Assembly (NCBI GenBank): GCA_016187485.1
Contig: JACPJO010000004.1
Span: forward strand, 56,306 to 120,305
Length of the DNA: 64,000 nt
Direction: 5' to 3'
Source: Candidatus Uhrbacteria bacterium
GTDB lineage: Bacteria; Patescibacteriota; Patescibacteriia; UBA9934; UBA10169
Shown: piece by piece, positions 4,301 to 41,940 of the stretch
Layout of the letters: the number at the start of each line of letters is the position of its first letter
Numbering within the stretch: the stretch's first letter is position 1
Program-made: the position numbers and the translations under genes
Notes under the pieces: generated by a model
Databases searched by the model: none
Told to the model about the DNA's origin: nothing
The model's input: only the letters and a program-made list of their open reading frames with translations

Positions 4301-7300
4301 TGAGGGGATATACGTCCCCGATCCAAGCGTCGGCACCGACGCCACGCATTCCTCGGCGCCTGAACAATCGCTGTCTTCAAAACAGAGTTGATCTTTAGTG
4401 ACACTGCAGTGCCGGTGCGTCTCGCCGTATGATGTAAGGGCCTCGCCAATAGTGCGTACGTCCGTAAGACGCTTGAGATCGCGACGGAGCTTGTCCTTGT
4501 CGGCATCGCAAAGCGCCGGCGAACCTCCCGTTGCCACCGCCGCGCACTCTGCATCCGTTGAGCACGCAACAAGCTCCCCATTCACTTCGATCGGGTCCAT
4601 GTCCCCGCTTGGGAGAGGCGTTGCGCAAACCCGGCCGTTTGTGACGGTCAAAAGCCCTGTCGTCAAGTCACGTGCACCGGCAAATTCCCATGCCCCAAGC
4701 ATAGCTTGATAGATTTGCCTGGTTTCCGCTGACGCCCCTTCGTTGTACGCAATCGCATACATATTGGGATAGAGCGCCGCGCCGGTGTTAGGTGCGGAAA
4801 CGTAGACCGTTCGGCCGTCACGCACACCCTCGAACCCGTCCACCGATTCCGCAGCAGGAGAGCCGACAAATCCTTGACCGGCAAACCACTCGGCGGGAGA
4901 GAGATAGTTGCTGTTGGAGAGCACGCGCACACCGATCGCGTCGTGTATATCCGGATCGTCCACGGCAAAAAGGAACTCCTTAAAAATCCCCGGTGACGCA
5001 ATGTTCTGCGTTTTTTGGACAACCGAGAGAGCCGGTAAGTCGTCACTCGTGCCGCGCTCCCCTGCATCACGGCAATAAAATGCGGAGAAATTCGTGTAGG
5101 GCGCAGTAAGCGTAATGCCCGGCGCTGGGTCTCCCGCATACCAGGCAGAATCTACAAACGGGAAATGTCCCACAGCCGGCCACGGGTTTTCACAAAGGAA
5201 CACGCGCTCCTCTACCGTGCCGCCCACGATTCGCCCAACGGTAGTGGGTGAGAGAACCGTATCTTCCATGATACGCAGTTGCGCCATGACATTCTCAACC
5301 CCATTGATCGCGGGGTTTGCCGTGGAAGCAGTTGCTGTTGTGTTGGCGCTGGTTGAAGCACCGGGAGTCACAACGACAATATTGGGGTCGGCGACACTCG
5401 AATTCCACCCCCATGTGGTAGAGACGGAAGTTCCGCTCCATGCCCACGCATACACTCCCGGCACACTCACGATAGGTTGCGCCAACGGCCCTATAAGTGT
5501 CATCGCCTCCGCCGCAAGTGGATGAGCCGTGTTCGCCTGTGTAAACAGGCCGGGGCTCGCGGAGAGGTCTTCCACCTGCACAAAATCTACGTCGCAAATA
5601 GTATTCCCCGTAGCAAAAATACGGGACCACGATGCCTCAAAGTTGGCAAAGACCGAGGAGTTTCCCACGAGCCCAACGCCCCATCGACTCAATACCCCAT
5701 CAGGATTCGCATCCGTATAGTTCGCATCCGCTTCTACCAAAATGCGGTAGAGCGTCTGTGGTTCAAGGATTTGGTTGTAGAGCACCGACACGCGTGTGAT
5801 GAACTCATCAGGATTCGTCTCGACATCTTCGATGGAGAGATTGGAGGCGACAATGCAGCTCACACTTCCCGCCCACGCGCGTGGCGCCACCACGCGCAAA
5901 ATATTCTGCCACAGACGGGCATACCACGGACGGTCAGAAAAATCCTGCACGATGACGGGCGTCGTATTCGTGGGGCAATCAGAGGCCGTCGTGTAGCGTA
6001 CGTCGGCCGAGTCGTAAGCGCCATTGCCGTTCGTGTCCTCCCCAAAAGCCGTAAGCACAATATGCTTCGTCCCGTTATCTTCCAAAATGCTCTCTTCACC
6101 CATTTGTTGCGTAAAGGCCACACGCACAAGCGCGTTTCGACACACGCCGGCACTCGTGGTGGCAAGCGGAACCGTGGTGCTTTCCTGTACCGCCGGACGA
6201 TCAAAACAGCAGTCACTCACCCCACAGCCAAGCAGGGCCGGCTCGCCGCATGTCGCATCGGTTGTGCAGGAGCACGAAAGACCGATCTCGGCCGTGCCAA
6301 ACGCTGAAGTCTCTGTTGCATCGTCCGAACCCGTTGCGCGAAGCGTCGTACGGACTTCCCCGTCCACGACCGCTTGGGTGGCAACGGCCTCGATTTCAAG
6401 CGTCTGGAGGGGATCGTACGGCCCCACCCCATCATCCGCGCTTGAGGAAATTTCACATTCCTCTCCAAGTTCCGGCAGACCGCCGTTGCCACAGAAGGAT
6501 GGCACCGGATAGAAAACCGACGAGCCTTCGTTCTGGCATTGTGCGGAGCACCCGTCACCACTTGTCGTATTTCCATCATCGCACTCCTCGCCGGCTCCTG
6601 TCGTCACGTTGTACTCTCTCCCGTTGGAACCACAGACACCATTCAAAATTCCCGTGGGGGTTGTGCGCGACCAGACACCCGGACCGAGCGGTTCAGCTAA
6701 ACAATTCGCGCTACACCCGTCCCCACTCGTGATACCTCCGTCGTCACAATCTTCCCCTTCTTCGACGTCACCGTTTCCACAGTGCACGCCAATATCGGCG
6801 CTTGGAGTGGAACCTTCGCGCAAACACTGCGCCGAACACCCATCGCCGCTTATCGTATTGCTGTCTTCACACTCCTCCCCGCCGGAACGGCCGTCCGGTG
6901 TTACTGTGTCGAATTGTGAAATCGTTCCGTCATTACATGTAAGTCCCGCCGCCGTCGAACCTTCGTTAAGACATGTTGCGGAACATCCGTTGCCGTCCAG
7001 GTTGCCGTTGTCGTCACATTCTTCGCGCCCTTCCCGGATACCATTGCCACAACACAACAGATCGGTTGCGGGGTTTGCACATGCGGTCACCCCGACGGTT
7101 TGACACGTGGGAGAACACCCAATGGGGTCAAGCGCGACATCACAATCTTCGTAGAAAGGATTGACGATGCCATCTCCGCAGACCGCCGCATACGAAATCG
7201 TCCCCGTACGCAAACACTGTGCACTGCACGAGAGAGCACGATCGGTGTCAGTGTCAAGAGTGGCCGTGAGCGTGCCGTCGGGAAGGTATGTCGCTACCGA

Positions 7301-10300
7301 GATCTGCGTATTCGTGGCAGAGTTCGTCACTTGATTCACCAGCCAATCCCATGCGTAAGCAAGCGGATTCAATACTTGGCCGGCCACGGCACAGCTGTCC
7401 GGTCGCCCCGTCACTGACGCGGAGAAACTTGCGCGGTCCCCCACGGCTTCAAGAATCACCTCAAGGGGGGAGAGAGCAACGTTCCCAATCCCGCAGGGGG
7501 CCGCATTATCCCGCGTGCGGAAAACCCACGAATAATAATTCCCGTAGTTGAGCGGTATAACCGGTGTGCCGTCCGGATTCGTAACCCCCCAGAGGGGAAT
7601 TCCCGGCACGGTAGGACTTTGCGGCTCCGATGTAATCCCCCCCCAGATCATCACACGATAATACATCGAGGGAGAAAGATCCCCGGCAAGTGTAAGTGCA
7701 ACGCCGTCTTCGACGTCCAATGGATCGTTTACAAAAGAGAGCGCTGTGGGGACAGGAGAGGTCGGATTGAAGGTTGCACAGAACTCATCCTCACAGGCAA
7801 AAACGCGCACATTTGGTTCAAGCACGTTTACCGCATTAACGTGACTCCCCGTAAGCCCCGTCGTTCCTGTTGCTTGCATGGCCGTGTTAAAAACGGCACC
7901 CACTTCTGCGTTCACACAGGCTGTCGTGCACTGTGGGTACGCGAGAGATACGGCGGGGTCGGTGAAATTCACGATCAATTCTTCCGTGTCAGAGATGCTG
8001 TAGCCAATGGGCGTGGCCGTGACAAGTGCCGGCTGTCCCGCATTGGTTTCCTCTTCAGGCACCACAAAGATAGGCTGGAGATTTTCAAAGGCCTGCGCGG
8101 CATTCCCCAAAAACAGGAGCGCATCGTTGATGTCCCCTTCAAGAGGACCGTACTGCGGATCTGCCGTCACGGGATCTGCGGCCTCCTCTGCAGCATCAAG
8201 CGCCGAAGAGAGCGTATCACCGGCAAGCAGCACAGGATTGAGCAGCGAGAAGACCGTGACGGTCTCTGCTGCGAGAGCCGTGTTCGTGCTTGTGAGCGTC
8301 GCAGCTGTTGGCCCTACCAGAGCATGCGCTTCAGGGAGGATCGTTTGCAGCGCCAGGAGAGCATCGGCAAGATCTGCAAGGTTGGTCGGAACCTCATCAA
8401 GAAGAGTTGTTGCCGGCGTGGCCGATTCCGGATCCCCAAGTGTTACCGTGTAGGGCGGATCCACATCAAAGTGGATGTTCTTTCCCTGCCGGTCGAGTTC
8501 CCACGCAAAGGCGTAATCATCAGGGTTGATAAGCACACACGCCCCCGTTGCAGGCAGAGCAACATACGGAATCGTCTCGTCGCTCGTCGCCGTATAATCT
8601 GGCGGACTTACGAGCACCTCTTCTACTTCGCAGGGAGTGGTGCTGGAGCGCGTCTTGAATCGATATGCATACGCCTGTGCCAGAGGAACACCACGGTTGT
8701 TTTTAATACCTGTGGTCGCCGTCGCGCGATACCAGGTATCGGGAAGCAGAGCCGTCGCAGGCGAGAAGATCAGGGAGAGATTCGTCGAGAGCAGAAAGTC
8801 TCCGGCAAGATGTCCTGTGGCAACCGTCTCGCAAGGATCCACTCCCGTCCCCGTACACCGATCTACGTAGAATGAGCCGTTGGTAAACGTAGAGATGTCC
8901 ATGCCGCTCGCGGGAAGGCCGGGAGTGAAGGAAACAGAGACCACCGCATTTGTACAGACGGCATCCCCATCGCTCCACAGTGTTGAGGGCGTGGGGGAAA
9001 TAAATGAGGTATCACACTGCGTACGGATTGTCGGATAGTTCGGGATGGGGCCGGTCGAGAAATGATACACGTACTGGGCGTTCACACTTGGCTCCCCGCA
9101 GGCGGCGGGCGTTGCCGCGCAACTGCCGTTCGAGCAACAAATTTGCGATGCCGTACACAACGAGGGCGTCTCTTGGCAATTCCCTACCGCAAAGAGAAGC
9201 TCATTTGATGGTGCGCCAAGAACCGTCACAGAAACCGGACCTGAAATGGCGCCCGTCGGTACAGGAGCGCTGACGTTCTCCGAAGAAGTGAAGCCAACCG
9301 GGCTTGCGGCTACCCCATCGTGGAAGGTGACACTCACTTCCGACGCGCTTGCGCCAAGATTGCTTCCGTAAATATTCACCGCTGTCCCCACAGGCCCCGC
9401 CACAGGCGCAAGCGCGCAAACGCCGGGTGTTGCAGGCGCCGAGACAACCGTGAAATCCTCCGCGTTACTTTGCGGACTCGTAGGGTAATCCGCACGGCGC
9501 ACAAAAATAGATTTGGGATTGGATTCCTCCGACGTGGTCATACTGGCTGGCACTTGCGCCACAATCGCCGAGTCCGTCCACCATGCATTCTGGCACGCAG
9601 CGGGAAAGTCCGGTTCAAACACCACATCGCCAAGCAAAGGGTCCTGAAAGACAACCACCCCTTCGGTAGATCCAAATCGTTGGCCTAAAATAGTCACGTA
9701 TTGCCCCACGCCACCTTCGGTCGGATGCGCAACACATTGTCCGGTTCCACACTGCGTATCGGACACACAAAGCTGCCCCGCATGTACGATATCGTTTTCA
9801 CACAAGGACCGGCCGGATGTCACTTCGCTGATGAACGGCGCACTGGAGGCATCTTCCGGTGAGAGAACACTGAAGTCAATCGTGTTAGACCCCTCATCAT
9901 TCACGAACACTTGGAGATCGTAGTCGCCCGGAGTACTCGGCGGAACAAGCAAGCTGATAAGCGCATCAAGCCACGTATCCACAGCGGGAAAGAATGACGC
10001 GCGATATACCGACGGACCGCTCAAGTAAAACGCCCCGACCGTCGGATCCTCCCCAAAATTATTTCCCACCACCGAGATGCGCGTAGCGGGCAGGCCGTTG
10101 CCCGGCGTTACCGCACAGAGCCCAGGACGGCGCACGTCATTCACATCAAAGTCTTGGATAAGCGGGCCGAAATCGTCATCCGTTCGGTCGGTAATTCCTG
10201 GCGTCGTGGCCGTCTCTGCTTTTACCACGCCGATCGCCCCATCTGCTGCCTCGGCAGGTACCGCCACAACTACCTGCGTGTTGTTCCAGCTCGGCGCCGG

Positions 10301-11728
10301 ACACGCAATGGGATCCACTTTAATGTCATCCGCCTCGGTATCCGGAGAACCGTAGAAGTACACGATGTTCGCTTGTGCACCAAAACCTGTTCCGTGAATC
10401 GTGACGAAATTATCCGGCGCGCCATTGCCAAGCGAAACCGATTGAATCCGCGGACCCGTGACGCAAACGCCGTTTACACAAAGCCCCGACGTGCAATCGC
10501 TGTTTTGGACACACACCGACGCATCGCAAGAAAGACAGTCCTCCCCGCCGCAATCTATCGCCGCCTCATCTTCATTTTGAATGGTGTCGGTACAGTGCGG
10601 GGCAAGAGCCGTCACGGGCACGCTGGAGGATGTCGTTTGATTACCGGCACAATCTGCCGCCACCGCGCGAATGGCATGGGTACTCGCTGGGGTAAGGTTC
10701 CCGGGCGTCCACGAACCCGATGCAAGACAGCTCACGGGACCGTCCCCCGCACAGGATGCCGGACCCGCAGAATCCACGGCTGTATTATCTACCGTAAAGG
10801 TGGTCACGCCCACACCGGAATCATCTGTAAGACTTGCCTGCAGAGACAGGGGGTAGCCCTCGTAGACAGGCGCGCCAGACGACGGATCAGTAATAGTCAC
10901 GGTTGGCCCCGTTGTATCTATGGCATCTGTCGTGGTGAAACCAAAGGAGCACGGCGCGGCAAGCGAACAGGCAATCTCTACGCCGTCCGCGCTTCGTAGA
11001 CCCTCAGAAACACGTACTTCGTAAGAAGTCGCCGGCTCAAAGCAGCGCTCAGAAGAACTGGGACAAGAAGCATCCGGCAGAACAGTAAGCACACGGCCAG
11101 AAGCGGAGAGATCCGTGGAAATAGCGTCCCCTCCGACAGGCGTCACGGTTATGTAAGGGGCAAGGGCGCTCGCGGACGTGGGAAGGTTTCGATTGAAGAG
11201 AATCTGAATCTCCGCATTTCTCGGCACCGAGGGAACCGAGGCCAGACACCCCCACGACGTAACGACAAATTGTGTGCGGTAGTCGGCAGGACATGTGGCG
11301 CAGGTGCTCAAATTTGTATCCTCCGGCCCCCCAATGACGTTGTTCTGCGACGTGGCGCCCACGAGCGATGAAATGACGAATTGCGCAATAGCAAAGGACG
11401 CCAAAATGATGGCAAGCCCGATGACCGCATTAATAATCATGCCGCGCGCTTTGCGCACCTTTTCCTCTTCTCCCTTCGAGAGCATCCACAAAAACCCGGC
11501 GTACAAGATCATGCCAATCAAGACCACGCCAGAGAACGTAATCGCTGCGCGCACAAGCCGCGCAATGATAAGACGGATGTCCGATGTCCCTCCAAACCCC
11601 GCTTGTGTGGCAAAATCTCCGAGGCCCTCGGTAATCGGCGACGAGGCGGCAAAAACAATATCGGGAAGCCACACGAGTGCGCCGAGAGAGAGGAGGAAGA
11701 CCAGTTGGGAGATGATGCGGCGTTTCAT
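1352..11728 (-). CDS. Giant (3458 aa) secreted, membrane-anchored surface protein. N-terminal signal peptide plus two-helix pilin-like hairpin, IPT/TIG-like beta-sandwich repeats, two arrays of Cys-rich CGDG/CGNG-x-EECDDGN-x-DGCS repeats (Myxococcus cysteine-rich-repeat type), C-terminal von Willebrand factor A domain with a MIDAS motif
   Basis: Single uninterrupted ORF with balanced amino-acid composition. N-terminus MKRRIISQLVFLLSLGALVWLPDIVFAASS, then TM helices GVVLIGMILYAGFLWM and AVIGLAIILASFAIAQFVI. Motifs VTIHGTGFG, VTILGQRFG and VNIYGSNLG are IPT-like. Repeats such as CGNGIREGREECDDNGNLDGNGCSATC occur about 6 and about 10 times. The VWA motif is DLIFLIDYSTSMS...GLGTHTAYGL...VILVSDGES. 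Confidence 0.85.
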   Translation of the reverse strand: MKRRIISQLVFLLSLGALVWLPDIVFAASSPITEGLGDFATQAGFGGTSDIRLIIARLVRAAITFSGVVLIGMILYAGFLWMLSKGEEEKVRKARGMIINAVIGLAIILASFAIAQFVISSLVGATSQNNVIGGPEDTNLSTCATCPADYRTQFVVTSWGCLASVPSVPRNAEIQILFNRNLPTSASALAPYITVTPVGGDAISTDLSASGRVLTVLPDASCPSSSERCFEPATSYEVRVSEGLRSADGVEIACSLAAPCSFGFTTTDAIDTTGPTVTITDPSSGAPVYEGYPLSLQASLTDDSGVGVTTFTVDNTAVDSAGPASCAGDGPVSCLASGSWTPGNLTPASTHAIRAVAADCAGNQTTSSSVPVTALAPHCTDTIQNEDEAAIDCGGEDCLSCDASVCVQNSDCTSGLCVNGVCVTGPRIQSVSLGNGAPDNFVTIHGTGFGAQANIVYFYGSPDTEADDIKVDPIACPAPSWNNTQVVVAVPAEAADGAIGVVKAETATTPGITDRTDDDFGPLIQDFDVNDVRRPGLCAVTPGNGLPATRISVVGNNFGEDPTVGAFYLSGPSVYRASFFPAVDTWLDALISLLVPPSTPGDYDLQVFVNDEGSNTIDFSVLSPEDASSAPFISEVTSGRSLCENDIVHAGQLCVSDTQCGTGQCVAHPTEGGVGQYVTILGQRFGSTEGVVVFQDPLLGDVVFEPDFPAACQNAWWTDSAIVAQVPASMTTSEESNPKSIFVRRADYPTSPQSNAEDFTVVSAPATPGVCALAPVAGPVGTAVNIYGSNLGASASEVSVTFHDGVAASPVGFTSSENVSAPVPTGAISGPVSVTVLGAPSNELLFAVGNCQETPSLCTASQICCSNGSCAATPAACGEPSVNAQYVYHFSTGPIPNYPTIRTQCDTSFISPTPSTLWSDGDAVCTNAVVSVSFTPGLPASGMDISTFTNGSFYVDRCTGTGVDPCETVATGHLAGDFLLSTNLSLIFSPATALLPDTWYRATATTGIKNNRGVPLAQAYAYRFKTRSSTTPCEVEEVLVSPPDYTATSDETIPYVALPATGACVLINPDDYAFAWELDRQGKNIHFDVDPPYTVTLGDPESATPATTLLDEVPTNLADLADALLALQTILPEAHALVGPTAATLTSTNTALAAETVTVFSLLNPVLLAGDTLSSALDAAEEAADPVTADPQYGPLEGDINDALLFLGNAAQAFENLQPIFVVPEEETNAGQPALVTATPIGYSISDTEELIVNFTDPAVSLAYPQCTTACVNAEVGAVFNTAMQATGTTGLTGSHVNAVNVLEPNVRVFACEDEFCATFNPTSPVPTALSFVNDPLDVEDGVALTLAGDLSPSMYYRVMIWGGITSEPQSPTVPGIPLWGVTNPDGTPVIPLNYGNYYSWVFRTRDNAAPCGIGNVALSPLEVILEAVGDRASFSASVTGRPDSCAVAGQVLNPLAYAWDWLVNQVTNSATNTQISVATYLPDGTLTATLDTDTDRALSCSAQCLRTGTISYAAVCGDGIVNPFYEDCDVALDPIGCSPTCQTVGVTACANPATDLLCCGNGIREGREECDDNGNLDGNGCSATCLNEGSTAAGLTCNDGTISQFDTVTPDGRSGGEECEDSNTISGDGCSAQCLREGSTPSADIGVHCGNGDVEEGEDCDDGGITSGDGCSANCLAEPLGPGVWSRTTPTGILNGVCGSNGREYNVTTGAGEECDDGNTTSGDGCSAQCQNEGSSVFYPVPSFCGNGGLPELGEECEISSSADDGVGPYDPLQTLEIEAVATQAVVDGEVRTTLRATGSDDATETSAFGTAEIGLSCSCTTDATCGEPALLGCGVSDCCFDRPAVQESTTVPLATTSAGVCRNALVRVAFTQQMGEESILEDNGTKHIVLTAFGEDTNGNGAYDSADVRYTTASDCPTNTTPVIVQDFSDRPWYARLWQNILRVVAPRAWAGSVSCIVASNLSIEDVETNPDEFITRVSVLYNQILEPQTLYRILVEADANYTDANPDGVLSRWGVGLVGNSSVFANFEASWSRIFATGNTICDVDFVQVEDLSASPGLFTQANTAHPLAAEAMTLIGPLAQPIVSVPGVYAWAWSGTSVSTTWGWNSSVADPNIVVVTPGASTSANTTATASTANPAINGVENVMAQLRIMEDTVLSPTTVGRIVGGTVEERVFLCENPWPAVGHFPFVDSAWYAGDPAPGITLTAPYTNFSAFYCRDAGERGTSDDLPALSVVQKTQNIASPGIFKEFLFAVDDPDIHDAIGVRVLSNSNYLSPAEWFAGQGFVGSPAAESVDGFEGVRDGRTVYVSAPNTGAALYPNMYAIAYNEGASAETRQIYQAMLGAWEFAGARDLTTGLLTVTNGRVCATPLPSGDMDPIEVNGELVACSTDAECAAVATGGSPALCDADKDKLRRDLKRLTDVRTIGEALTSYGETHRHCSVTKDQLCFEDSDCSGAEECVASVPTLGSGTYIPSFSLSAWPSWQAQLANALGRAVPTDPLNTFVSCPDGYDAETCYNALAAQAICPADSHVYTYRSIGGEEFWLSTDLEFGVAPPAETTLAWASPVDVDSPLPNLGTYYVGNANLPSPFASTPVLGGFQNARTCNGATFTATNVCGDGLIGSGEICEVGETTSVSCSTNVCANAVNLSFNGLPCTTASDCGSNGSCVATSGTRAVPCVGPSDASGLGCQAFQTASTSAACIPNYCGDGVIQGSETCDDGPLNGQYGFCATNCTWTSAVFCGDGLIGGAEACDCGSAASFNLLAPTPQCRTASASYLNGLYSTDPAYGCAADCSGTAPSCGDGTVNGAAEECDGTNEQWNGKLCVNGDPCTTNAECADGSLCGDPALSWAGVCPASTASDTLGLPQTRTRVCNGLGLPPYTNACRWPTTTGIPGGWQACAPVGSCGNGIPEGIEECDDGDTDEQDACRNNCTQNVCGDGVRNVGVESCDLGGQNGVPCNPAYSDTCNYCSATCTYQTVTGGYCGDGVINGGEVCDGASVPSYCFKGAINPTERVRGEVCGTDADCPFDYTCEALVGTCNGGSATAVDGEYVYNGFPCAQPPPETFDYNKACGDPIFNPDTFGSCVLQDCNASCSLACPFTLEQGAVLAQSETAVNRTTSVDLRSYLSEDPATAGAPDNATLYFPACTVGSALYASVSFDDVEPPNIDLIFLIDYSTSMSYEIDGTPPEADESTRLDIVKEALVDAADELYDAFPNGNLASGIVIFNEVNPATDVLAENPLPNASFTASKSELVLNLSQLANPGTGLGTHTAYGLSRAYELLTTDRPDTDVRIVILVSDGESDDLLAAAAASDTLDTLENTVIYTVAFTSNDDEIAVNNHFSSDVCGVDFYELNNSDGTPECAPPADGVEYAYNAPDADGFQAVVDTITANILGLSLNYETTTGFAGGVASEGDDVLLPFPPGFECPASGAFQIPFHINFNGSGTVNLSDLRLEYCPQ

Positions 11729-18631: not shown

Positions 18632-18671
18632 AACGAGGGCTATTGTAGCGGTTTTTTTGGCAGGAGACAAA

Positions 18672-18696
18672 AACTCTCCGTTCGAACGGAGAGTTT
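18672..18696 (-). terminator. Hairpin AACTCTCCG-TTCGAA-CGGAGAGTT with a downstream T-run on the minus strand. Terminator immediately 3' of tRNA-Val
   Basis: Seen directly. 9-bp perfect stem. On the minus strand it is followed by TTTTGTCTCC. Confidence 0.5.
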
Positions 18697-18697
18697 T

Positions 18698-18774
18698 TGG
18701 TGGACGTTGGAGGATTCGAACCTCCGACCTTTCGAATGTGAATCGAACGCTCTAACCAGCTGAGCTAAACGTCC
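18698..18774 (-). tRNA. tRNA-Val (anticodon CAC), CCA encoded
   Basis: Reverse complement GGACGTTTAGCTCAGCTGGTTAGAGCGTTCGATTCACATTCGAAAGGTCGGAGGTTCGAATCCTCCAACGTCCACCA folds into a canonical cloverleaf. Perfect 7-bp acceptor stem. Anticodon loop TTCACAT. Confidence 0.88.
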
Positions 18775-22202: not shown

Positions 22203-23825
22203 CTACTTGATGTCTTCGCCGTAGCAGCTCTGGGCTCTGCCTTCGGCGTTCTTGGTGCAGAGGGTGGGAATGCCCCCGCAGTAGTACCGGTCGTAGAGGG
22301 TGCGCTTCTCGCGACCCTTCACGTTGACGGCACCGGGCACGCACTCGCCCTTGAGGACATCGCCCGTCAGCATCGCCTCGAGCGCGCGCTGGGCGTACCC
22401 AGCTTTCTTCTCGGCGGCGAGAGCGCGCTCGTCAGCCTTGCCGAACTTGGTCTCGGCCAAGTGCGCCGAAGCGGCAGACTCCGCCGCAGCGGCTTCAGCA
22501 GCCGAGCGCAGTTCCTCCCGACGGGACGTTTCCTTCGAGAAGACGGTGATGAGACTGGCCACGTGGTCGTTCATCCACTCCGACGACTCGCCGATGCTCG
22601 CGATCTGCTCGCTCTGGGTTGCGTCCACGCGGCCCTGGTGCATCCAGAACGCAACGATTCCAGTAGCAAGGACGGTAAAGAGGCCGATCACGATCGTCCG
22701 CACACGCTTGAGCGCGTGGAGAGCCAGAGAGAGGCGTTGACCGAGATCTTCCACCTGCTTCACGGACGGGAGCGCGATGACCGGCATCGGCCGCTCCGTC
22801 CCGGGGGTCGTCTGCTGCCTGGACGGCGGCGGCTCGGGGTAGGCCAGCCTGCGCAGTGCCACCATCCCCTGCTCCATGGTCATGAGCCGATCCCACATAC
22901 CGTCGAAGACCGCACGGTTGTACGCCGGCTCTCCGCTTCCGTCGCAGATGACCGCGACGATCTGCGTCCACATGCCCGTGAGGTCCGGACGACTGATCGT
23001 GAAGGGGAACTTCGTCGCCAGGATGGCCCAGACATTCTGGGCGTTCATCGCCTTGGGAGCATCCCCCATCCCGAGGACCTCGGCCCACAGGTAGTCGCGG
23101 CGCAAGTTGGGCAGACGCCACAGATCTTCGGGACTGGGCGGCGCCTTCGCTGCCTGATCTTCACGCTTGAGCTGCTTCCAGATCGTGTCAAAGCTCGCCC
23201 GTCCGAGGGGAGGAAGATCACCCTGGCAGAGCATCAACTCCACCATCAGGTTGAAGTCAAGACGCATCTGCGGAAGAGCGACGATGTTGGGGAAGTGCCG
23301 CTGAAGCAGCCGCCAGGCGTTGTCCTCGTTGATGTCCCGAGGGTCCATCCCCTCGATCTCGAAGACCCGGCAGAGATACGCCCACCGGACGTCCAGGCCC
23401 CTCCAGTTGGCCTCAGGGTTCGGATCCGGCGCCACGGGCGGGCCGTTGCCCCCTCCGTTCGCTTCAAGTTCCGCCGCCACGCGGTGCATCTCGTCGGGGT
23501 CGAAGCCCTCCGTTTCCTCATCGTTCCCGATGCCATCGTGGATGGCTGCGGCCAGCACGTCCCGCCGACGGTCACCCTGGAACAATGGCCCCTCCGGAAT
23601 GCCGGGAATGGATCCCCCCTCTTCGTCTGCTGTCTGCACCGGCGGGGCACCACCAACCACCGGCACGATGCCGGGGCGCGGAAGATCCGTCGAGCCGGGG
23701 GCAGCCTCTCCCTCATCCCCAGGCGGTCGGGGAAGAAATCCCTCGTCTTCCACGATCTGTGCGGGACCCTTCTGGCCCTTGTTTCCATCGTTGCTTGAAA
23801 TGAGCATTCTGTTGTCTCCCTCCAT
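22203..23825 (-). CDS. Hypothetical 540-aa protein with compositionally foreign (very high GC3) codon usage. Disordered Pro/Gly/Glu N-terminus, two tandem aromatic-rich repeats of about 85 aa, one TM helix, a coiled-coil Ala/Glu segment and a Cys-rich C-terminus
   Basis: Balanced amino-acid composition on the minus frame. The overlapping plus-strand ORFs are Arg-rich artefacts. Repeats are ...WRLLQRHFPNIVALPQMRLDFNLMVELMLCQGDLPPLGRASFDTIWKQL and ...VWAILATKFPFTISRPDLTGMWTQIVAVICDGSGEPAYNRAVFDGMWDRL. TM helix IVIGLFTVLATGIVAFWMH. Confidence 0.6.
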   Translation of the reverse strand: MEGDNRMLISSNDGNKGQKGPAQIVEDEGFLPRPPGDEGEAAPGSTDLPRPGIVPVVGGAPPVQTADEEGGSIPGIPEGPLFQGDRRRDVLAAAIHDGIGNDEETEGFDPDEMHRVAAELEANGGGNGPPVAPDPNPEANWRGLDVRWAYLCRVFEIEGMDPRDINEDNAWRLLQRHFPNIVALPQMRLDFNLMVELMLCQGDLPPLGRASFDTIWKQLKREDQAAKAPPSPEDLWRLPNLRRDYLWAEVLGMGDAPKAMNAQNVWAILATKFPFTISRPDLTGMWTQIVAVICDGSGEPAYNRAVFDGMWDRLMTMEQGMVALRRLAYPEPPPSRQQTTPGTERPMPVIALPSVKQVEDLGQRLSLALHALKRVRTIVIGLFTVLATGIVAFWMHQGRVDATQSEQIASIGESSEWMNDHVASLITVFSKETSRREELRSAAEAAAAESAASAHLAETKFGKADERALAAEKKAGYAQRALEAMLTGDVLKGECVPGAVNVKGREKRTLYDRYYCGGIPTLCTKNAEGRAQSCYGEDIK

Positions 23826-30603: not shown

Positions 30604-31426
30604 GGCGGCTCAAGAGATCACGGAGCTCTTCTTTTGAGTAATAGAAGAAGGAAACTTTGTTGGTGTCAATTTCAACTTTCGTCCCAAAAACTTCTCGAAG
30701 TTTCGCGGCATGCGCGGCAAGATTCGGGTCAGCCCCCTTCTTTCCCAATCGTTTTGTTCCAATCCCGACGTGTCCCTCTGCTTGGCGCACCGTAAGGCCG
30801 CCCGCAAGCATGGCTTGAAAAAGAGTCTCGCGTTTCGCCGGGTCTGTTTCGGAAAGCAGCGTGCGCGCATGCGTGCGCGTAATTTTGCCGTCACGAAGCG
30901 CACTCTTCATGGCTTCGGGAAGATCGAGCAGTCGCATCGTATTTGCCACCTCTGAACGGCTCTTCCCCACGCGCTCCGCCGCGGCCGCTTGCGTCAAATT
31001 AAATTCCTCAATAAGCGCCTTATATGCCACGGCTTCCTCCAACGCGCCGAGTTGCTGGCGCTGAATATTCTCAATGAGGGCCAATTCCAATTTCTCCTGA
31101 TCAGATGCCGTGCGCACCACGGCCGGCACCTGCGCCATGCCAAGATCGCGTGCGGCACGCAGACGGCGCTCTCCGGCAATAAGTTCAAAACCGTCCCCCC
31201 GGCGCGTGACGATAAGCGGCTGGAGGATCCCGTGTTCCTTGATAGATACCATCAGGTCGTCCATCTCGCTTGCCGAAAAATGTTTGCGTGGCTGAAACGG
31301 ATTCTCCGAAATCTTCGCTACAGGAATTTCCTGCATGCCGTCTTTGGCAAGTTCAGGAAGCACCTGCGACGTAAGACTTTCTTTTTGTGGTAACAGGGCG
31401 CCAAGCCCTCGGGCAAGTCCGCTCAT
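30590..31426 (-). CDS. parB: Chromosome partitioning protein ParB/Spo0J
   Basis: GILQPLIVTRRGDGFELIAGERRLRAARDLGM. Confidence 0.88.
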   Translation of the reverse strand: MSGLARGLGALLPQKESLTSQVLPELAKDGMQEIPVAKISENPFQPRKHFSASEMDDLMVSIKEHGILQPLIVTRRGDGFELIAGERRLRAARDLGMAQVPAVVRTASDQEKLELALIENIQRQQLGALEEAVAYKALIEEFNLTQAAAAERVGKSRSEVANTMRLLDLPEAMKSALRDGKITRTHARTLLSETDPAKRETLFQAMLAGGLTVRQAEGHVGIGTKRLGKKGADPNLAAHAAKLREVFGTKVEIDTNKVSFFYYSKEELRDLLSRLIDL

Positions 31427-32235
31427 AGTGTGGCGGGGTCGGGTTCGATGGTGCCGCCCGATTCGCGCAGGAGAAATTCCCGTGCAAGCCGGTCGTACGC
31501 CTTCGCCCCCTTCCCGGAAGGATCATAATGTAAAATAGTTTTTCCGGCAGATGGCGCCTCGGCCAGCCGTACCGTGCGTGGAATGACCGAACGGAAAATG
31601 CGGTTGGGAAAATACCGATACAGTTCTTCAAGCACATCACGCGACAGCGTTGTTCGGCTGTCGTACATCGTGATGACCGCGCCCATGATCTCGAGCTCCG
31701 GCTTCAAACCAGATTTTACCAAATCAATCGTTTGCATGAGTTGGCTCAACCCTTCAAGGGCAAAGTATTCTGCCTGCACGGGAATAAGAACAGAGTCAGC
31801 TGCTACAAGGCCGTTCACCGTAAGGAGGCCAAGCGAGGGCGGGTTATCAATAATAATGTAATCGTAGTCGTTGCGCACCTCGAGCAGCGCTTGGTGGAGT
31901 TTCCACTCACGCTCGGAAGAGCCGACAAGCTCCACCGGCGCGCCTGCAAGATTCATGGTAGCGGGGATCACACGCAATCCCTCATGCGCGGTAGCTTGTA
32001 CAACTTCTTTGGGTCGGCGCACACCCATGAGGATCTCGTAGATGCCGTGCGGGATCACGCGATAATCCAAACCGAGGCCGGACGTGGCGTTTGCTTGCGG
32101 ATCCAAATCCACCAGCAAGACAAACTTACCGTAATACGCAAGATAGGCCGCGAGATTCATCGCGGTCGTCGTCTTCCCCACTCCTCCCTTCTGATTCACA
32201 ACGGAAACAATGTGGGCCATAGCAGGAGTGTGCAT
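31423..32235 (-). CDS. parA: Chromosome partitioning ATPase ParA/Soj
   Basis: Deviant Walker A NQKGGVGKTTTAMNLAAYLA. Starts are at 32235 (MHTPAMAHIV) or 32220 (MAHIVSV). The track ORF extends to 32388. Confidence 0.88.
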   Translation of the reverse strand: MHTPAMAHIVSVVNQKGGVGKTTTAMNLAAYLAYYGKFVLLVDLDPQANATSGLGLDYRVIPHGIYEILMGVRRPKEVVQATAHEGLRVIPATMNLAGAPVELVGSSEREWKLHQALLEVRNDYDYIIIDNPPSLGLLTVNGLVAADSVLIPVQAEYFALEGLSQLMQTIDLVKSGLKPELEIMGAVITMYDSRTTLSRDVLEELYRYFPNRIFRSVIPRTVRLAEAPSAGKTILHYDPSGKGAKAYDRLAREFLLRESGGTIEPDPATL

Positions 32236-32399
32236 AGTATAGCAGACGGAAACGATTGACAGAAAGGCATTTCTGTGTAACTCTTGGGCTACCCCCCAAG
32301 GGGTGCACGAGACTGGATGGGTCGCCCGCAATCCTGCGGGGATGCCAAAAGGTCTCATGGTGGGACGTCCGGCATCCGGAGTCGCCACAGGAGTCAGTC

Positions 32400-33101
32400 A
32401 TGCACAATCACAGCAAGCCCGTGAGCTCCGTCCTGTCGTGGATCGCCTGGGTCTTCATCAACCCGACGGTTCTGGCCGTCGTGGGCACGTTCTTCTTCAT
32501 CTGGCTCTTCGCTCTTCCGGGTGAGCCTTTCTTCGATGGGCCCATCGTGACGGCGAGCGACAAGATGACCTTCGCTGCCTTGTTCGCCTGCGGTTCCGTG
32601 GTCCTGGGAGGATCTATGTTCATGAGCATGAACATGATGAACTCCCATCTGAAGCGCCATCAGATGGAGGCGAGCCGCCACCGCCTGGAGGGAGCGCTCT
32701 CCATGTCGTACATCTGCAACACGCCCGGCGCAGAAGAGATGGGGTTCCAATACCGGACGCCCGAGGACACGCTTCGGCTCCTCGTGACGGCACTGCGTGA
32801 GTTGCCCCAACGAGATGCGTGGAACATCACCGAGGAACAGCTGCGCGTGCTCGTGCGTCACGGCCTGAACGCGCAAGTGGTGCACAGTCAGCTCCTCGTC
32901 CTCGAGGACTTTCTGCGCGAGCCGCGCAAGCTGGCGCAGAGCAAGGGACTCAACGACGTGCTGGCCGCGATCGTCCCCTACCTCGAGTTCGTCCGCGAGA
33001 CTGCGCTCATGAACTGCGATCCCGACACGGCTACGCGGCGGCACTACCTGATCCGTGAGGCACTCGAGAAGGTGGCGCCCGTCATCACGAGGACGAACTA
33101 G
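32400..33101 (+). CDS. Hypothetical two-TM membrane protein with compositionally foreign (high GC3) codon usage
   Basis: MHNHSKPVSSVLSWIAWVFINPTVLAVVGTFFFIWLFAL... A second TM helix AALFACGSVVLGGSMFMSM. The GGAG RBS sits 8 nt upstream of the ATG at 32400. The track start is 32256. Confidence 0.5.
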   Translation: MHNHSKPVSSVLSWIAWVFINPTVLAVVGTFFFIWLFALPGEPFFDGPIVTASDKMTFAALFACGSVVLGGSMFMSMNMMNSHLKRHQMEASRHRLEGALSMSYICNTPGAEEMGFQYRTPEDTLRLLVTALRELPQRDAWNITEEQLRVLVRHGLNAQVVHSQLLVLEDFLREPRKLAQSKGLNDVLAAIVPYLEFVRETALMNCDPDTATRRHYLIREALEKVAPVITRTN

Positions 33102-33194
33102 TTCCGTTCCTTCTTGTCTCCCGTAGCTCGTAAGAGCGAAGGAGAATCACACGACCCCCCTGGGTCGTTTTCGATTTATCCGTATCTGAAATTG

Positions 33195-33265
33195 AGTTTC
33201 GAAGTGCACTAATATCTACAGGTTTTATTCGATACTTAGTTTCGAAACTTCGTCTCGAAAACAGT
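33195..33265. repeat. AT-rich spacer with three direct copies of a GTTTCGAA-containing motif
   Basis: Seen directly in ...gagtttcgaagtg...tagtttcgaaactt...cgtctcgaaaac... Confidence 0.4.
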
Positions 33266-33293
33266 CTCAAAAATCGTACAAGACACAAGATCC

Positions 33294-33337
33294 ATAAACC
33301 TCACGCAAGGGCCGATCGGCCCTTGCGTGAGGTTTAT
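33294..33337. repeat. Perfect 44-bp palindrome ATAAACCTCACGCAAGGGCCGA|TCGGCCCTTGCGTGAGGTTTAT
   Basis: Checked base by base. 22-bp arms with no spacer. Confidence 0.8.
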
Positions 33338-33360
33338 ATGAGGTCTATATGCTATATGGA

Positions 33361-33388
33361 AGAAAAACAAAAAGACCTTTGTGGTCTT
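33361..33388 (-). terminator. Rho-independent terminator (AAAGACC-TTTGT-GGTCTTT plus T-run) 3' of tRNA-Leu
   Basis: On the minus strand the hairpin is followed by TTTTTGTTTTTC. Confidence 0.55.
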
Positions 33389-33474
33389 TGGTGCCGGGAG
33401 AGGGACTCGAACCCTCAAGGGCTTGCGCCCACGGGATTTTGAGTCCCGCGCGTATACCAATTCCGCCATCCCGG
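33388..33474 (-). tRNA. tRNA-Leu (anticodon CAA), type II long variable arm, CCA encoded
   Basis: Reverse complement GCCGGGATGGCGGAATTGGTATACGCGCGGGACTCAAAATCCCGTGGGCGCAAGCCCTTGAGGGTTCGAGTCCCTCTCCCGGCACCA. Anticodon loop CTCAAAA. Confidence 0.88.
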
Positions 33475-33550
33475 CATTGCAAGCAGGATACTAACAATTC
33501 TTGGATTACTTGACAATCAAGCAGTTGGACTATAGCATTCAGCCACACGA

Positions 33551-33627
<77 letters not shown>

Positions 33628-33636
33628 ATTGTTCGG

Positions 33637-33713
33637 GGCTGGGTAGCTCAGTTGGTTAGAGCGAGGGACTCATAAGCCCTAGGTCGCCGGTTCGATTCCG
33701 GCCCCAGCTACCA
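33637..33713 (+). tRNA. tRNA with CAU anticodon: elongator Met or Ile2 (lysidine)
   Basis: GGCTGGGTAGCTCAGTTGGTTAGAGCGAGGGACTCATAAGCCCTAGGTCGCCGGTTCGATTCCGGCCCCAGCTACCA. Elongator-type acceptor stem. Its identity cannot be fixed from sequence alone. Confidence 0.8.
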
Positions 33714-41753: not shown

Positions 41754-41940
41754 AGCGGGAACAGTGTAGCAGAGGTTGGCAGGGTGAGGTAGGGGCCCAC
41801 AAGGGTTCCCTCGGAGCTTAATTCCGGGCAACAGCCATCGTTAAAATGACAAAGCCCCAGTGCGAGATGGTTCGAACCGAAGGTTCGAACCATCTCGCCT
41901 GGGGCGAGACACGTCGTGCGCAGACGACGTGAGTGGAGGT

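What the first reader, a model, noticed from the sequence alone, without database searches (positions are those of the whole stretch)
32400..33400. Foreign two-TM gene next to the tRNA cluster, followed by an AT-rich repeat region with a perfect 44-bp palindrome: possible integration hotspot or scar
Immediately 3' of the high-GC3 gene lies ~260 nt of low-GC DNA. It contains three direct GTTTCGAA-type repeats (33195-33265) and a perfect 22+22-bp palindrome (33294-33337), then a terminator and tRNA-Leu/fMet/Met. tRNA loci are classic island integration sites. A palindrome of this length is unlikely by chance and could be a MITE/IS terminal remnant, a recombination site or a very strong bidirectional terminator.
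Basis: seen in the sequence. Interest (0 to 1): 0.55.

Follow-up and report, generated by a model that had tools for sequence, protein, structure and literature searches.

The report
Orphan gene insertion with terminator palindrome
In a Candidatus Uhrbacteria genome, a foreign gene of unknown function sits in a gap between a tRNA cluster and parA that differs from species to species, and the 44-bp palindrome beside it looks like an unusually strong terminator hairpin whose 28-bp core recurs in a few related genomes, which is real but fairly ordinary biology.

Summary
The gene at 32400-33101 has GC3 of 0.85 against about 0.6 for its neighbours. A 287-nt stretch of 43% GC follows it, with a non-random cluster of TTCGA motifs and a perfect 22+22 palindrome at 33294-33337. 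Next come a small terminator, tRNA-Leu(CAA) and two tRNA-Met genes.

The window comes from a Candidatus Uhrbacteria genome. In 80 related loci the same tRNA trio lies upstream of parA. The gap between them is 34-250 nt in 31 loci and holds varied, mostly unrelated ORFs in 37. The closest relative has a 34-nt gap and lacks both the gene and the palindrome. So about 1.1 kb has been inserted here.

The gene has one distant homologue among 1.84 billion representative proteins, at an unrelated locus, and the two share a 5' leader.

I found no integrase and no duplicated tRNA end, and tRNA-Leu keeps its own terminator. This is therefore not a classical tRNA-targeted island.

The palindrome's 28-nt core is identical at four other loci, three of them just after a gene's stop codon, and three flanked by A and T runs. 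It is most likely a bidirectional terminator or insulator hairpin, possibly a small repeated module. The role of the TTCGA cluster is unknown.

The parts
31423..32229 (-). parA, the conserved anchor on one side of the variable gap
   Evidence: Pfam AAA_31/CbiA/ParA. Orthologues at 66-80% identity in 80 loci.
32230..32399 (.). Divergent spacer. The half nearer parA holds a TATACT -10-like box about 20 nt upstream of the parA start. The half nearer the ORF is its 5' leader, and 32326-32389 is conserved with the homologue's leader.
   Evidence: Local alignment with L090 scores 29, against 17.5 +/- 2.3 in shuffles. The leader is non-coding in L090. A candidate hairpin is seen with only two sequences. 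The TATACT box was read directly from the sequence and also appears upstream of parA in L007 and L050.
32400..33101 (+). Orphan gene, 233 aa: two N-terminal transmembrane segments plus a helical domain. Compositionally foreign.
   Evidence: GC3 0.85. No Pfam, PHROG, PADLOC or NCBIfam hit. Only itself among 5.8e9 proteins. One distant homologue, P0002, among 1.84e9 representatives. Hydropathy. AGGAG lies 7 nt before the ATG (read from sequence).
33151..33178 (+). The ORF's own small intrinsic terminator: a 7-bp stem followed by TTTTCGATTT
   Evidence: -11 kcal/mol
33166..33262 (.). Cluster of five TTCGA(A/T)-type cores, at about 33166, 33195, 33225, 33238 and 33251, including the 12-bp palindrome AGTTTCGAAACT at 33238-33249. 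Function unknown.
   Evidence: enrichment P~0.001-0.005. The fold is not significant (z -1.7 to -2.2). The motif is not found in relatives.
33294..33337 (.). Perfect 22+22 palindrome. The core, 33302-33329, is CACGCAAGGGCCGATCGGCCCTTGCGTG. Proposed to be a bidirectional terminator or insulator hairpin.
   Evidence: An identical 28-nt core occurs in L025, L087, L088 and L089. Contig breaks at 33323.
33361..33389 (-). tRNA-Leu's own terminator: a 7-bp stem followed by TTTTTGTTTTT
   Evidence: Relatives have the same tRNA-then-hairpin layout.
33389..33475 (-). tRNA-Leu(CAA), convergent with the orphan gene
33551..33713 (+). Two tRNA-Met(CAT) genes (33551-33627 and 33637-33713). They are transcribed divergently from tRNA-Leu, from back-to-back promoter-like sites at 33488-33538.

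Best explanation
The locus is a small, non-autonomous insertion of foreign DNA into a gap that varies between species, lying between the tRNA-Leu/Met/Met cluster and parA of a Candidatus Uhrbacteria chromosome.

The imported unit consists of a roughly 100-nt 5' leader, an orphan gene for a two-transmembrane helical protein, and that gene's own small terminator (about 32300-33178). It was probably acquired by illegitimate or homology-assisted recombination of taken-up DNA rather than by a site-specific integrase. This step is inferred.

The 44-bp palindrome is an exceptionally stable stem-loop of the intrinsic-terminator type. It sits between the orphan gene and tRNA-Leu, which converge on each other. 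On either strand the RNA folds into a roughly 20-bp hairpin followed by UUUAU. This would stop or pause any polymerase that reads through the two weaker primary terminators, and would protect both 3' ends from exonucleases. The effect would be to insulate the tRNA operon from the new gene. This function is inferred from position, fold energy and the context of its homologues. It has not been shown.

The hairpin belongs to a small family with an identical 28-bp core, found elsewhere just after genes in other Uhrbacteria or Patescibacteria.

The TTCGA-motif cluster is non-random, but I cannot assign it a role. My best guess is leftover or co-imported spacer DNA with a local duplication.
For: Organism and synteny:
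- Searches show the same gene order in the closest relative, L091: aspS, scpA, scpB, a family S11 peptidase gene, a small multidrug-export-family gene, the tRNAs, parA, parB, relA, topA.
- This also rules out a large-scale misassembly at the palindrome.

Foreign gene:
- GC3 is 0.85 against about 0.6 for neighbours.
- The only homologue, P0002, shares 39% identity over 109 aa (pairwise E 5e-21). It lies next to S1 and FtsH genes on another CPR-like contig, where its GC3 (0.71) matches its neighbours (0.68).
- Its leader is also conserved.

Insertion:
- The gap between the tRNA cluster and parA is 34-250 nt in 31 of 80 loci.
- That includes loci with the window's own tRNA arrangement: L050 with 53 nt and L028 with 99 nt. 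There the layout is tRNA-Leu, hairpin, parA promoter.
- The closest relative has a 34-nt gap.
- Larger gaps hold 77 ORFs falling into 63 clusters, 54 of them singletons.

Terminator reading:
- Long perfect A-run/stem/T-run palindromes are common after genes and tRNAs in these genomes, including after the window's own tRNA-Val at 18668-18699.
- The identical 28-nt core occurs with canonical A5-8 and T5-8 flanks directly after the parB stop in L025 and L088, and 12 nt after a transketolase stop in L087.
- In L089 it lies upstream of a peptidase gene, without A/T-run flanks.
- The outer 8 bp differ between copies but stay complementary, so four of the five copies are perfect 22+22 palindromes.
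- The terminator scan flags the site on the minus strand.
- Fold energy is -41 to -43 kcal/mol.
Against: - Both converging genes already have terminators of their own (33151-33178 and 33361-33389), so a third is not obviously needed.
- In the window copy the A and T runs are degenerate (ATAAACCT/AGGTTTAT). A clean U-tract is missing, so the site may pause polymerase rather than terminate.
- No transcript data exist.
- An identical 28-nt core in species whose ParA proteins are only 72% identical is not explained by terminator function alone.
- The TTCGA cluster remains unexplained.
- The source of the insertion and the way it arrived are unknown.
Confidence: 0.55

Rival explanations
1. The palindrome is primarily a copy of a small, spreading palindromic repeat, of the REP, MITE or uptake-sequence type. 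Its 28-bp core is recognised by some protein acting in trans or by the DNA-uptake machinery. Any terminator activity is secondary.
For: - The 28 nt are identical in five loci from at least three genomes and at three or more unrelated positions.
- No intermediate variants (up to 5 mismatches) exist in 1 Mb of related DNA. This all-or-none pattern looks like copying rather than slow divergence.
- L020 is 96% identical to L088 in the flanking coding sequence but carries a different hairpin at the same site.
Against: - Only one copy occurs in about 74 kb of the window's own genome.
- Only 3 contigs, all from one sample, were found among 241 million metagenome records, and none in viral contigs.
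- There are no target-site duplications; the flanks are inverted complements, not direct repeats.
- No transposase was found beside any copy.
- Copy number per genome could not be measured.
Confidence: 0.2
2. The region is the scar of a classical integrase-mediated island that entered at the 3' end of tRNA-Leu. The TTCGA repeats would be former arm-type recombinase binding sites and the palindrome part of a former att region. The integrase and the rest of the island were later deleted.
For: - The region lies next to a tRNA 3' end, the gene is foreign, and the region is absent from relatives.
- The clustered short repeats are spaced 28, 30, 13 and 14 nt apart.
Against: - There is no integrase, excisionase or any other mobility gene.
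- There is no duplicate of the tRNA 3' end at the parA-side boundary.
- tRNA-Leu's native-type terminator still lies between the tRNA and the insert, so the junction is not inside the tRNA.
- Relatives fill the same gap with unrelated ORFs; I did not screen those ORFs for integrases.
Confidence: 0.08
3. 33178-33340 encodes an unannotated small RNA or cis-acting RNA, and the palindrome is its terminator.
For: About 190 nt lie between two terminators with no plausible ORF, and the region ends in a strong hairpin.
Against: - No promoter-like site lies in the stretch.
- There is no Rfam match beyond spurious hairpin hits.
- Outside the palindrome the fold is not better than shuffled sequence (z about -2).
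- There is no homologue in any relative, so covariation cannot be tested.
Confidence: 0.08
4. The TTCGA cluster and/or the palindrome are protein-binding DNA sites linked to the neighbouring parAB genes (a non-canonical parS or centromere) or to replication (origin-like iterons).
For: - The site is close to parAB.
- AGTTTCGAAACT resembles parS half-sites with the central ACGT missing (read from sequence).
- No canonical parS exists in the window or in 80 parAB loci.
- One copy of the palindrome core lies right after parB in L025 and L088.
Against: - Neither motif is conserved near parAB in relatives; GTTTCGAAAC occurs in 1 of 81 sequences searched (80 loci plus the window).
- The core also lies next to transketolase and peptidase genes.
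- Cumulative GC skew runs straight through the site, so this is neither an origin nor a terminus.
Confidence: 0.05
5. The palindrome is an assembly artefact.
For: Palindromes can arise at misjoined contig ends.
Against: - Contigs from independent sequencing runs break exactly where a real 44-bp palindrome would force a k=31 graph to fold.
- Synteny across the site matches the closest relative.
- The same 44-bp architecture appears in assemblies made by other groups.
Confidence: 0.02

Closest known systems
Bidirectional intrinsic (Rho-independent) terminators between convergent genes
   Same: A GC-rich perfect stem sits between two convergent 3' ends. The symmetry gives the same hairpin on both strands. 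Homologous copies have an A-run upstream and a T-run downstream. Such sites are pervasive in bacteria (my own knowledge of the full-length RNA profiling literature; the topic of bioRxiv 10.1101/2022.10.23.513370, listed, title and abstract only).
   Different: The stem is far longer and more stable than usual: about 20 bp and -41 kcal/mol, against 7-14 bp. The window copy has degenerate A/T tracts. It is a third hairpin, placed behind two ordinary terminators.
REP (repetitive extragenic palindrome) elements of enterobacteria and pseudomonads
   Same: It is an extragenic palindrome at gene 3' ends, recurs with a conserved sequence at unrelated loci, and may act on 3' UTRs and termination (bioRxiv 10.64898/2026.03.23.713779, abstract only).
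   Different: REPs are imperfect palindromes present in hundreds of copies per genome, often paired, and linked to RAYT transposases. Here the palindrome is perfect, its copy number is unknown and apparently low, and I did not look for a RAYT.
DNA-uptake sequences (DUS/USS) arranged as inverted pairs that double as terminators in Neisseria and Pasteurellaceae (my own knowledge)
   Same: An identical short sequence is reused as the arms of terminator hairpins at many genes. The hosts, CPR bacteria, are thought to depend on DNA uptake.
   Different: There is no evidence of genome-wide over-representation or of single, unpaired copies. This is speculation only.
tRNA-adjacent genomic islets and islands
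   Same: A compositionally foreign gene lies beside a tRNA gene, is absent from relatives, and occupies a gap whose content varies between species.
   Different: There is no integrase, no att repeats, and only a single gene. The junction lies downstream of the tRNA's terminator, not inside the tRNA.

Membership tests
tRNA-targeted integrative island (tyrosine-integrase type) | Integrase or recombinase gene at one end | tested here: not met
   The 1.16-kb gap holds a single ORF with no family match.
tRNA-targeted integrative island (tyrosine-integrase type) | Direct repeat of the tRNA 3' end at the distal boundary (attL/attR) | tested here: not met
   No repeat of 12 nt or more links 33389-33430 with 32230-32400. 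The only partial match (20 nt, 75%) lies inside the coding sequence.
tRNA-targeted integrative island (tyrosine-integrase type) | Junction inside the tRNA gene's 3' part | tested here: not met
   tRNA-Leu keeps an adjacent hairpin plus T-run terminator at 33361-33389, as in relatives.
tRNA-targeted integrative island (tyrosine-integrase type) | Atypical composition and absence from relatives | tested here: met
   GC3 is 0.85 against about 0.6. The region is absent from all 80 related loci and from the closest relative.
Intrinsic bidirectional terminator | Stable GC-rich stem-loop on both strands | tested here: met
   -43.4 and -41.0 kcal/mol, z about -10.
Intrinsic bidirectional terminator | U-tract immediately 3' of the stem on both strands (A-tract 5') | tested here: inconclusive
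   The window copy has AGGTTTAT/ATAAACCT, and only the minus strand passes the scan. Copies in L025, L087 and L088 have clean A and T runs.
Intrinsic bidirectional terminator | Location just downstream of stop codons or between convergent genes | tested here: met
   In the window it lies between the convergent ORF and tRNA-Leu. In L025 and L088 it follows the parB stop, and in L087 it lies 12 nt after a transketolase stop.
Intrinsic bidirectional terminator | Transcripts end there | not testable with these tools
   No transcript data are available.
REP/MITE-like repeated palindromic element | Same sequence at non-orthologous loci | tested here: met
   The 28-nt core is identical at five loci and in three or more contexts.
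REP/MITE-like repeated palindromic element | Many copies per genome | tested here: inconclusive
   One copy occurs in 64 kb plus 10 kb of flank from the same genome. Three contigs come from one metagenome and may or may not be one organism.
REP/MITE-like repeated palindromic element | Target-site duplication, or an associated transposase (RAYT or IS200/IS605 TnpA) | tested here: not met
   The flanks are inverted complements, not direct repeats. No transposase ORF lies next to any copy. The genomes were not searched for a RAYT.
parS / ParB-binding centromere | Match to TGTTNCACGTGAAACA, or a motif conserved near parAB across relatives | tested here: not met
   No match within 2 mismatches in the window. 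No consistent site in 80 loci. GTTTCGAAAC and the 28-nt core are not conserved near parAB.
Replication origin or terminus | GC-skew switch | tested here: not met
   Cumulative skew falls almost steadily across the whole window, with no switch at 33 kb.
Known RNA family (Rfam) | Covariance-model match at or above the gathering score | tested here: not met
   Only the tRNAs reach the threshold. Low-scoring miRNA-precursor hits merely reflect the hairpin.

The most novel reading that the evidence does not exclude
The 28-bp core CACGCAAGGGCCGATCGGCCCTTGCGTG could be a discrete palindromic module that spreads horizontally among Uhrbacteria and Patescibacteria, in the manner of REP elements or uptake sequences. 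It would be copied between unrelated gene ends and between species, supplying ready-made super-stable terminators. The window copy would have arrived with, or next to, a freshly acquired orphan gene.
Probability: 0.2. Interest if true: 0.55.

Novelty: new member of a known kind. Interest (0 to 1): 0.3.

Why it matters
It gives a concrete example of how the small genomes of candidate-phyla-radiation (CPR) bacteria take up single orphan genes without recognisable mobile-element machinery. The gap involved, between a tRNA cluster and parA, is rebuilt from species to species. It also points to a short hairpin sequence shared exactly between distinct species. If that hairpin proves to be a multi-copy element, it would be the first repeat family of its kind described for this group, and a handle on transcription termination or DNA exchange in organisms that cannot be cultured. 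As it stands, nothing here overturns expectations.

Tried and rejected
- **Origin or terminus of replication:** rejected. There is no skew switch.
- **parS:** rejected. There is no canonical site in the window or in relatives, and no motif is conserved near parAB.
- **Known RNA families, including tRNA remnants and group I introns, in 33050-33420:** none found.
- **Small ORFs in the spacer:** only implausible ones that overlap the gene end or the tRNA.
- **att-type direct repeats:** none.
- **Similarity of 32230-33390 to plasmids or phages:** none.
- **Relatives of the gene, or the palindrome core, in viral contigs:** none.
- **Function of the protein:** no hit in Pfam, PHROGs, PADLOC, NCBIfam or PDB sequences. 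The single-sequence AlphaFold model is poor (pLDDT 53, all-helical), so I did not run a fold search.
- **A closer strain lacking the insert:** none exists in the collections. ParA identity drops from 100% straight to 80%.
- **A misreading I corrected:** I first took the PDDEXK_5 gene in L091 to be cargo lying between tRNAs. It is in fact a homing-endonuclease ORF inside a group I intron that splits tRNA-fMet.
- **Sites orthologous to the L087 copy in two other Patescibacteria** (transketolase 65-66% identical): no core there.
- **Right-hand contigs of the window's organism:** they break inside tRNA-Met, so they give no independent check of the right arm.
Full report
**Observation**

- An ORF at 32400-33101 (+) encodes 233 aa and is preceded by AGGAG. 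Its GC3 is 0.85, while 23 other genes of the window lie at 0.54-0.65 and one further outlier reaches 0.80.
- It has two N-terminal hydrophobic segments.
- A 287-nt spacer at 43% GC follows (40% for 33178-33366). The window as a whole is 55.6% GC.
- The spacer contains, in order:
  - the ORF's own small terminator, 33151-33178;
  - a cluster of TTCGA-type cores;
  - the perfect 22+22 palindrome, 33294-33337;
  - the terminator of tRNA-Leu, 33361-33389 on the minus strand.
- tRNA-Leu(CAA) is on the minus strand, convergent with the ORF. Two tRNA-Met genes follow on the plus strand.
- The TTCGA cluster exceeds chance: 4 TTCGA against 0.8 in dinucleotide shuffles (P~0.001), and 8 exact 8-mer repeat pairs against 1.5 (P~0.005).
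- The palindrome is unique in the window and is its longest. It folds at -41 to -43 kcal/mol, against -8 to -20 for other terminators here.
- Five of the six contigs shown for the same organism, from separate sequencing runs, stop at window position 33323. A k=31 assembly graph would fold back at exactly that point on a 44-bp palindrome beginning at 33294 (the k value is my own knowledge). The palindrome is therefore real.

**Context**

- The orphan protein is annotated in NCBI as a hypothetical protein of a Candidatus Uhrbacteria bacterium.
- The neighbourhood is topA, an unknown gene, relA/spoT, parB, parA | orphan gene | tRNA-Leu, tRNA-Met, tRNA-Met | a small multidrug-export-family gene, a family S11 peptidase gene, scpB, scpA, aspS.
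- The closest relative available has ParA 80% identical (L091-L094) and shows the same order on both sides. The join across the palindrome is therefore not a large-scale misassembly.
- Cumulative GC skew runs straight through the site, so this is neither an origin nor a terminus.

**The gene**

- It matches no family in Pfam, PHROGs, PADLOC or NCBIfam, and no PDB sequence.
- Among 5.8 billion clustered proteins it finds only itself.
- An exhaustive HMMER pass over 1.84 billion representatives finds one real homologue, P0002: E 4e-13 in the library, 39% identity over 109 aa, sharing the motif KGLNDVLAA(I/L)VPY.
- P0002 lies on a 3.5-kb CPR-like contig next to S1 and FtsH genes. It is not near tRNAs or parA. 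Its GC3 there (0.71) matches its neighbours (0.68).
- About 65 nt of leader directly upstream of the start codon are also alignable: score 29 against 17.5 +/- 2.3 in shuffles. The leader is non-coding in L090. The gene therefore appears to travel with its leader.
- It is a real but very rare gene, compositionally at home elsewhere and foreign here.

**The gap in relatives**

- I fetched 80 parA loci from Uhrbacteria and neighbouring Parcubacteria.
- The tRNA-Leu(CAA)/Met/Met trio lies upstream of parA in most of them.
- The gap from the nearest tRNA to parA varies:

| Gap from nearest tRNA to parA | Loci (of 80) |
|---|---|
| 34-250 nt | 31 |
| 279-297 nt | 2 |
| 350-4600 nt | 37 |
| no tRNA seen upstream in the fetched DNA | 10 |

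- Loci with the window's own arrangement (Met-, Met-, Leu+, then parA) can be compact: 53 nt in L050 and 99 nt in L028. Their layout is tRNA-Leu, hairpin terminator, parA promoter.
- The closest relative has a 34-nt gap. The window's gap is 1159 nt.
- The larger gaps contain 77 ORFs in 63 similarity clusters, 54 of them singletons. Some of these ORFs are surely spurious. Some 'gaps' hide an intron-split tRNA-fMet that ARAGORN cannot detect.
- No relative contains the orphan gene or anything alignable to its spacer.
- The position is therefore variable, and the window carries a lineage-specific insertion of about 1.1 kb.

**Not a classical island**

- The gap has one gene and no integrase.
- There is no duplicate of the tRNA-Leu 3' end at the parA-side boundary.
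- tRNA-Leu still has a native-type terminator directly after it. The foreign DNA therefore begins beyond the tRNA transcription unit.
- Nothing matches plasmids, phages or viral contigs.

**The palindrome**

- Long perfect palindromes of the form A-run, stem, short loop, stem, T-run are common after genes and tRNAs throughout these genomes. One sits after the window's own tRNA-Val at 18668-18699.
- The inner 28 nt of the window's palindrome (33302-33329) occur identically in L025, directly after the parB stop.
- They also occur in three contigs of one metagenome:
  - L088, after parB, the site orthologous to L025;
  - L087, 12 nt after a transketolase stop, whose best named matches are Patescibacteria;
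  - L089, upstream of a peptidase gene.
- Four of the five copies are exactly 22+22. Their outer 8 bp differ (ATAAACCT, AAAAATAC, AAAAGAAC, AAAAAAAT) yet remain complementary.
- No variants within 5 mismatches exist in about 1 Mb of related DNA.
- L020 is 96% identical to L088 in the coding flanks but has a different hairpin at the same site.
- Position, symmetry, A/T flanks and stability all fit a bidirectional intrinsic terminator.
- Exact reuse of the core between species whose ParA proteins are only 72% identical suggests, beyond that, some copying or transfer of the hairpin itself.
One copy occurs in the 74 kb of the window's genome that I could read.

**The TTCGA cluster**

- It is non-random.
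- It has no promoter-like site, no Rfam match, no significant fold and no counterpart in relatives.
- AGTTTCGAAACT resembles parS half-sites with the central ACGT removed.
- However, neither canonical parS nor this motif is conserved near parAB in 80 loci. I reject that idea.
- Its role remains open.

**Mechanism, comparison and verdict**

- The best-supported reading (confidence about 0.55) is a single-gene foreign insertion, made of leader, orphan membrane-protein gene and terminator, in a variable gap. Behind it lies an extra-strong bidirectional terminator or insulator hairpin that separates the new gene from the convergent tRNA-Leu.
- Shown here: the composition, the rarity of the gene, its absence from relatives, the variability of the gap, the reality of the palindrome, and the recurrence of its core, mostly just after genes.
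- Inferred: actual termination, the route by which the DNA was acquired, and whether the palindrome came in with the gene.
- The main rival is a REP-, MITE- or uptake-sequence-like repeat (about 0.2). It is compatible with terminator activity, and the novel case rests on it.
- The integrase-scar, small-RNA, protein-binding-array and artefact readings are each at or below about 0.08.
- The closest known things are bidirectional intrinsic terminators, REP elements and tRNA-adjacent islets.
- I file the locus as a new member of known kinds, with interest of about 0.3.

Noticed in passing
L007-L086; window 33389-33713: The tRNA-Leu(CAA) plus two tRNA-Met genes lie upstream of parA in most of the loci examined. 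However, their order and orientation differ from species to species (Leu- Met+ Met+; Met- Met- Leu-; Met- Met- Leu+; Met+ Met+ Leu+; and others). The small cluster is repeatedly inverted and reshuffled while its neighbours stay put.
   Followed up: partly
L091 about 5040-5830 (also L092, L093): In the closest relative the initiator-type tRNA-Met gene is split in the anticodon loop by a group I intron (Rfam RF00028, 48.1 bits against a gathering score of 50, E 7.6e-11). The intron carries a PDDEXK_5 (PF11645) ORF. This is the same arrangement as the I-Ssp6803I homing endonuclease in the cyanobacterial tRNA-fMet intron (my own knowledge). Loci where ARAGORN sees only one tRNA-Met may carry the same intron.
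   Followed up: partly
window 18668-18699; many loci: Perfect palindromes of the form (C)AAAAA-stem-loop-stem-TTTTT(G), with arms of 13-30 nt, are very common after tRNAs and genes in Uhrbacteria. Arms that are perfect at the DNA level, with no G-T positions, suggest correction at the DNA level (quasi-palindrome repair) as well as selection on RNA.
   Followed up: partly
L020 7759-7984 vs L088 2196-2326: Two genomes are 96% identical in parB and in the next gene, yet carry entirely different terminator hairpins and spacers between them. This implies fast turnover or replacement of terminator modules.
   Followed up: no
window 22203-23825 (-): A second compositional outlier: 540 aa, GC3 0.80, with no Pfam or NCBIfam match. 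It lies next to dprA and may be another foreign orphan gene.
   Followed up: partly
window 32326-32389 and L090 about 2567-2626: A leader of about 65 nt directly upstream of the orphan gene is conserved with the leader of its only homologue, at about 72% identity against 58% in the coding region. It can form a hairpin just before the ribosome-binding site. It might be a cis-regulatory RNA, but two sequences are too few to test this.
   Followed up: partly
window 1-64000 and 80 parAB loci: No canonical parS (TGTTNCACGTGAAACA, up to 2 mismatches) is found in the window or consistently near parAB in relatives. The ParB binding site of this group is either elsewhere or non-canonical.
   Followed up: partly
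window 41862-41898: A perfect 17+3+17 palindrome, GCGAGATGGTTCGAACC-GAA-GGTTCGAACCATCTCGC, lies about 30 nt upstream of adk. It sits in an 830-nt stretch between secY and adk whose only ORFs have no family match.
   Followed up: no
window 1352-11728 (-): A giant ORF of 3458 aa has only weak T4SS_pilin, Big_5, TIG and VWA hits. It is followed by two TSP3_bac-repeat proteins. It is probably one of the large surface proteins typical of CPR bacteria.
   Followed up: no
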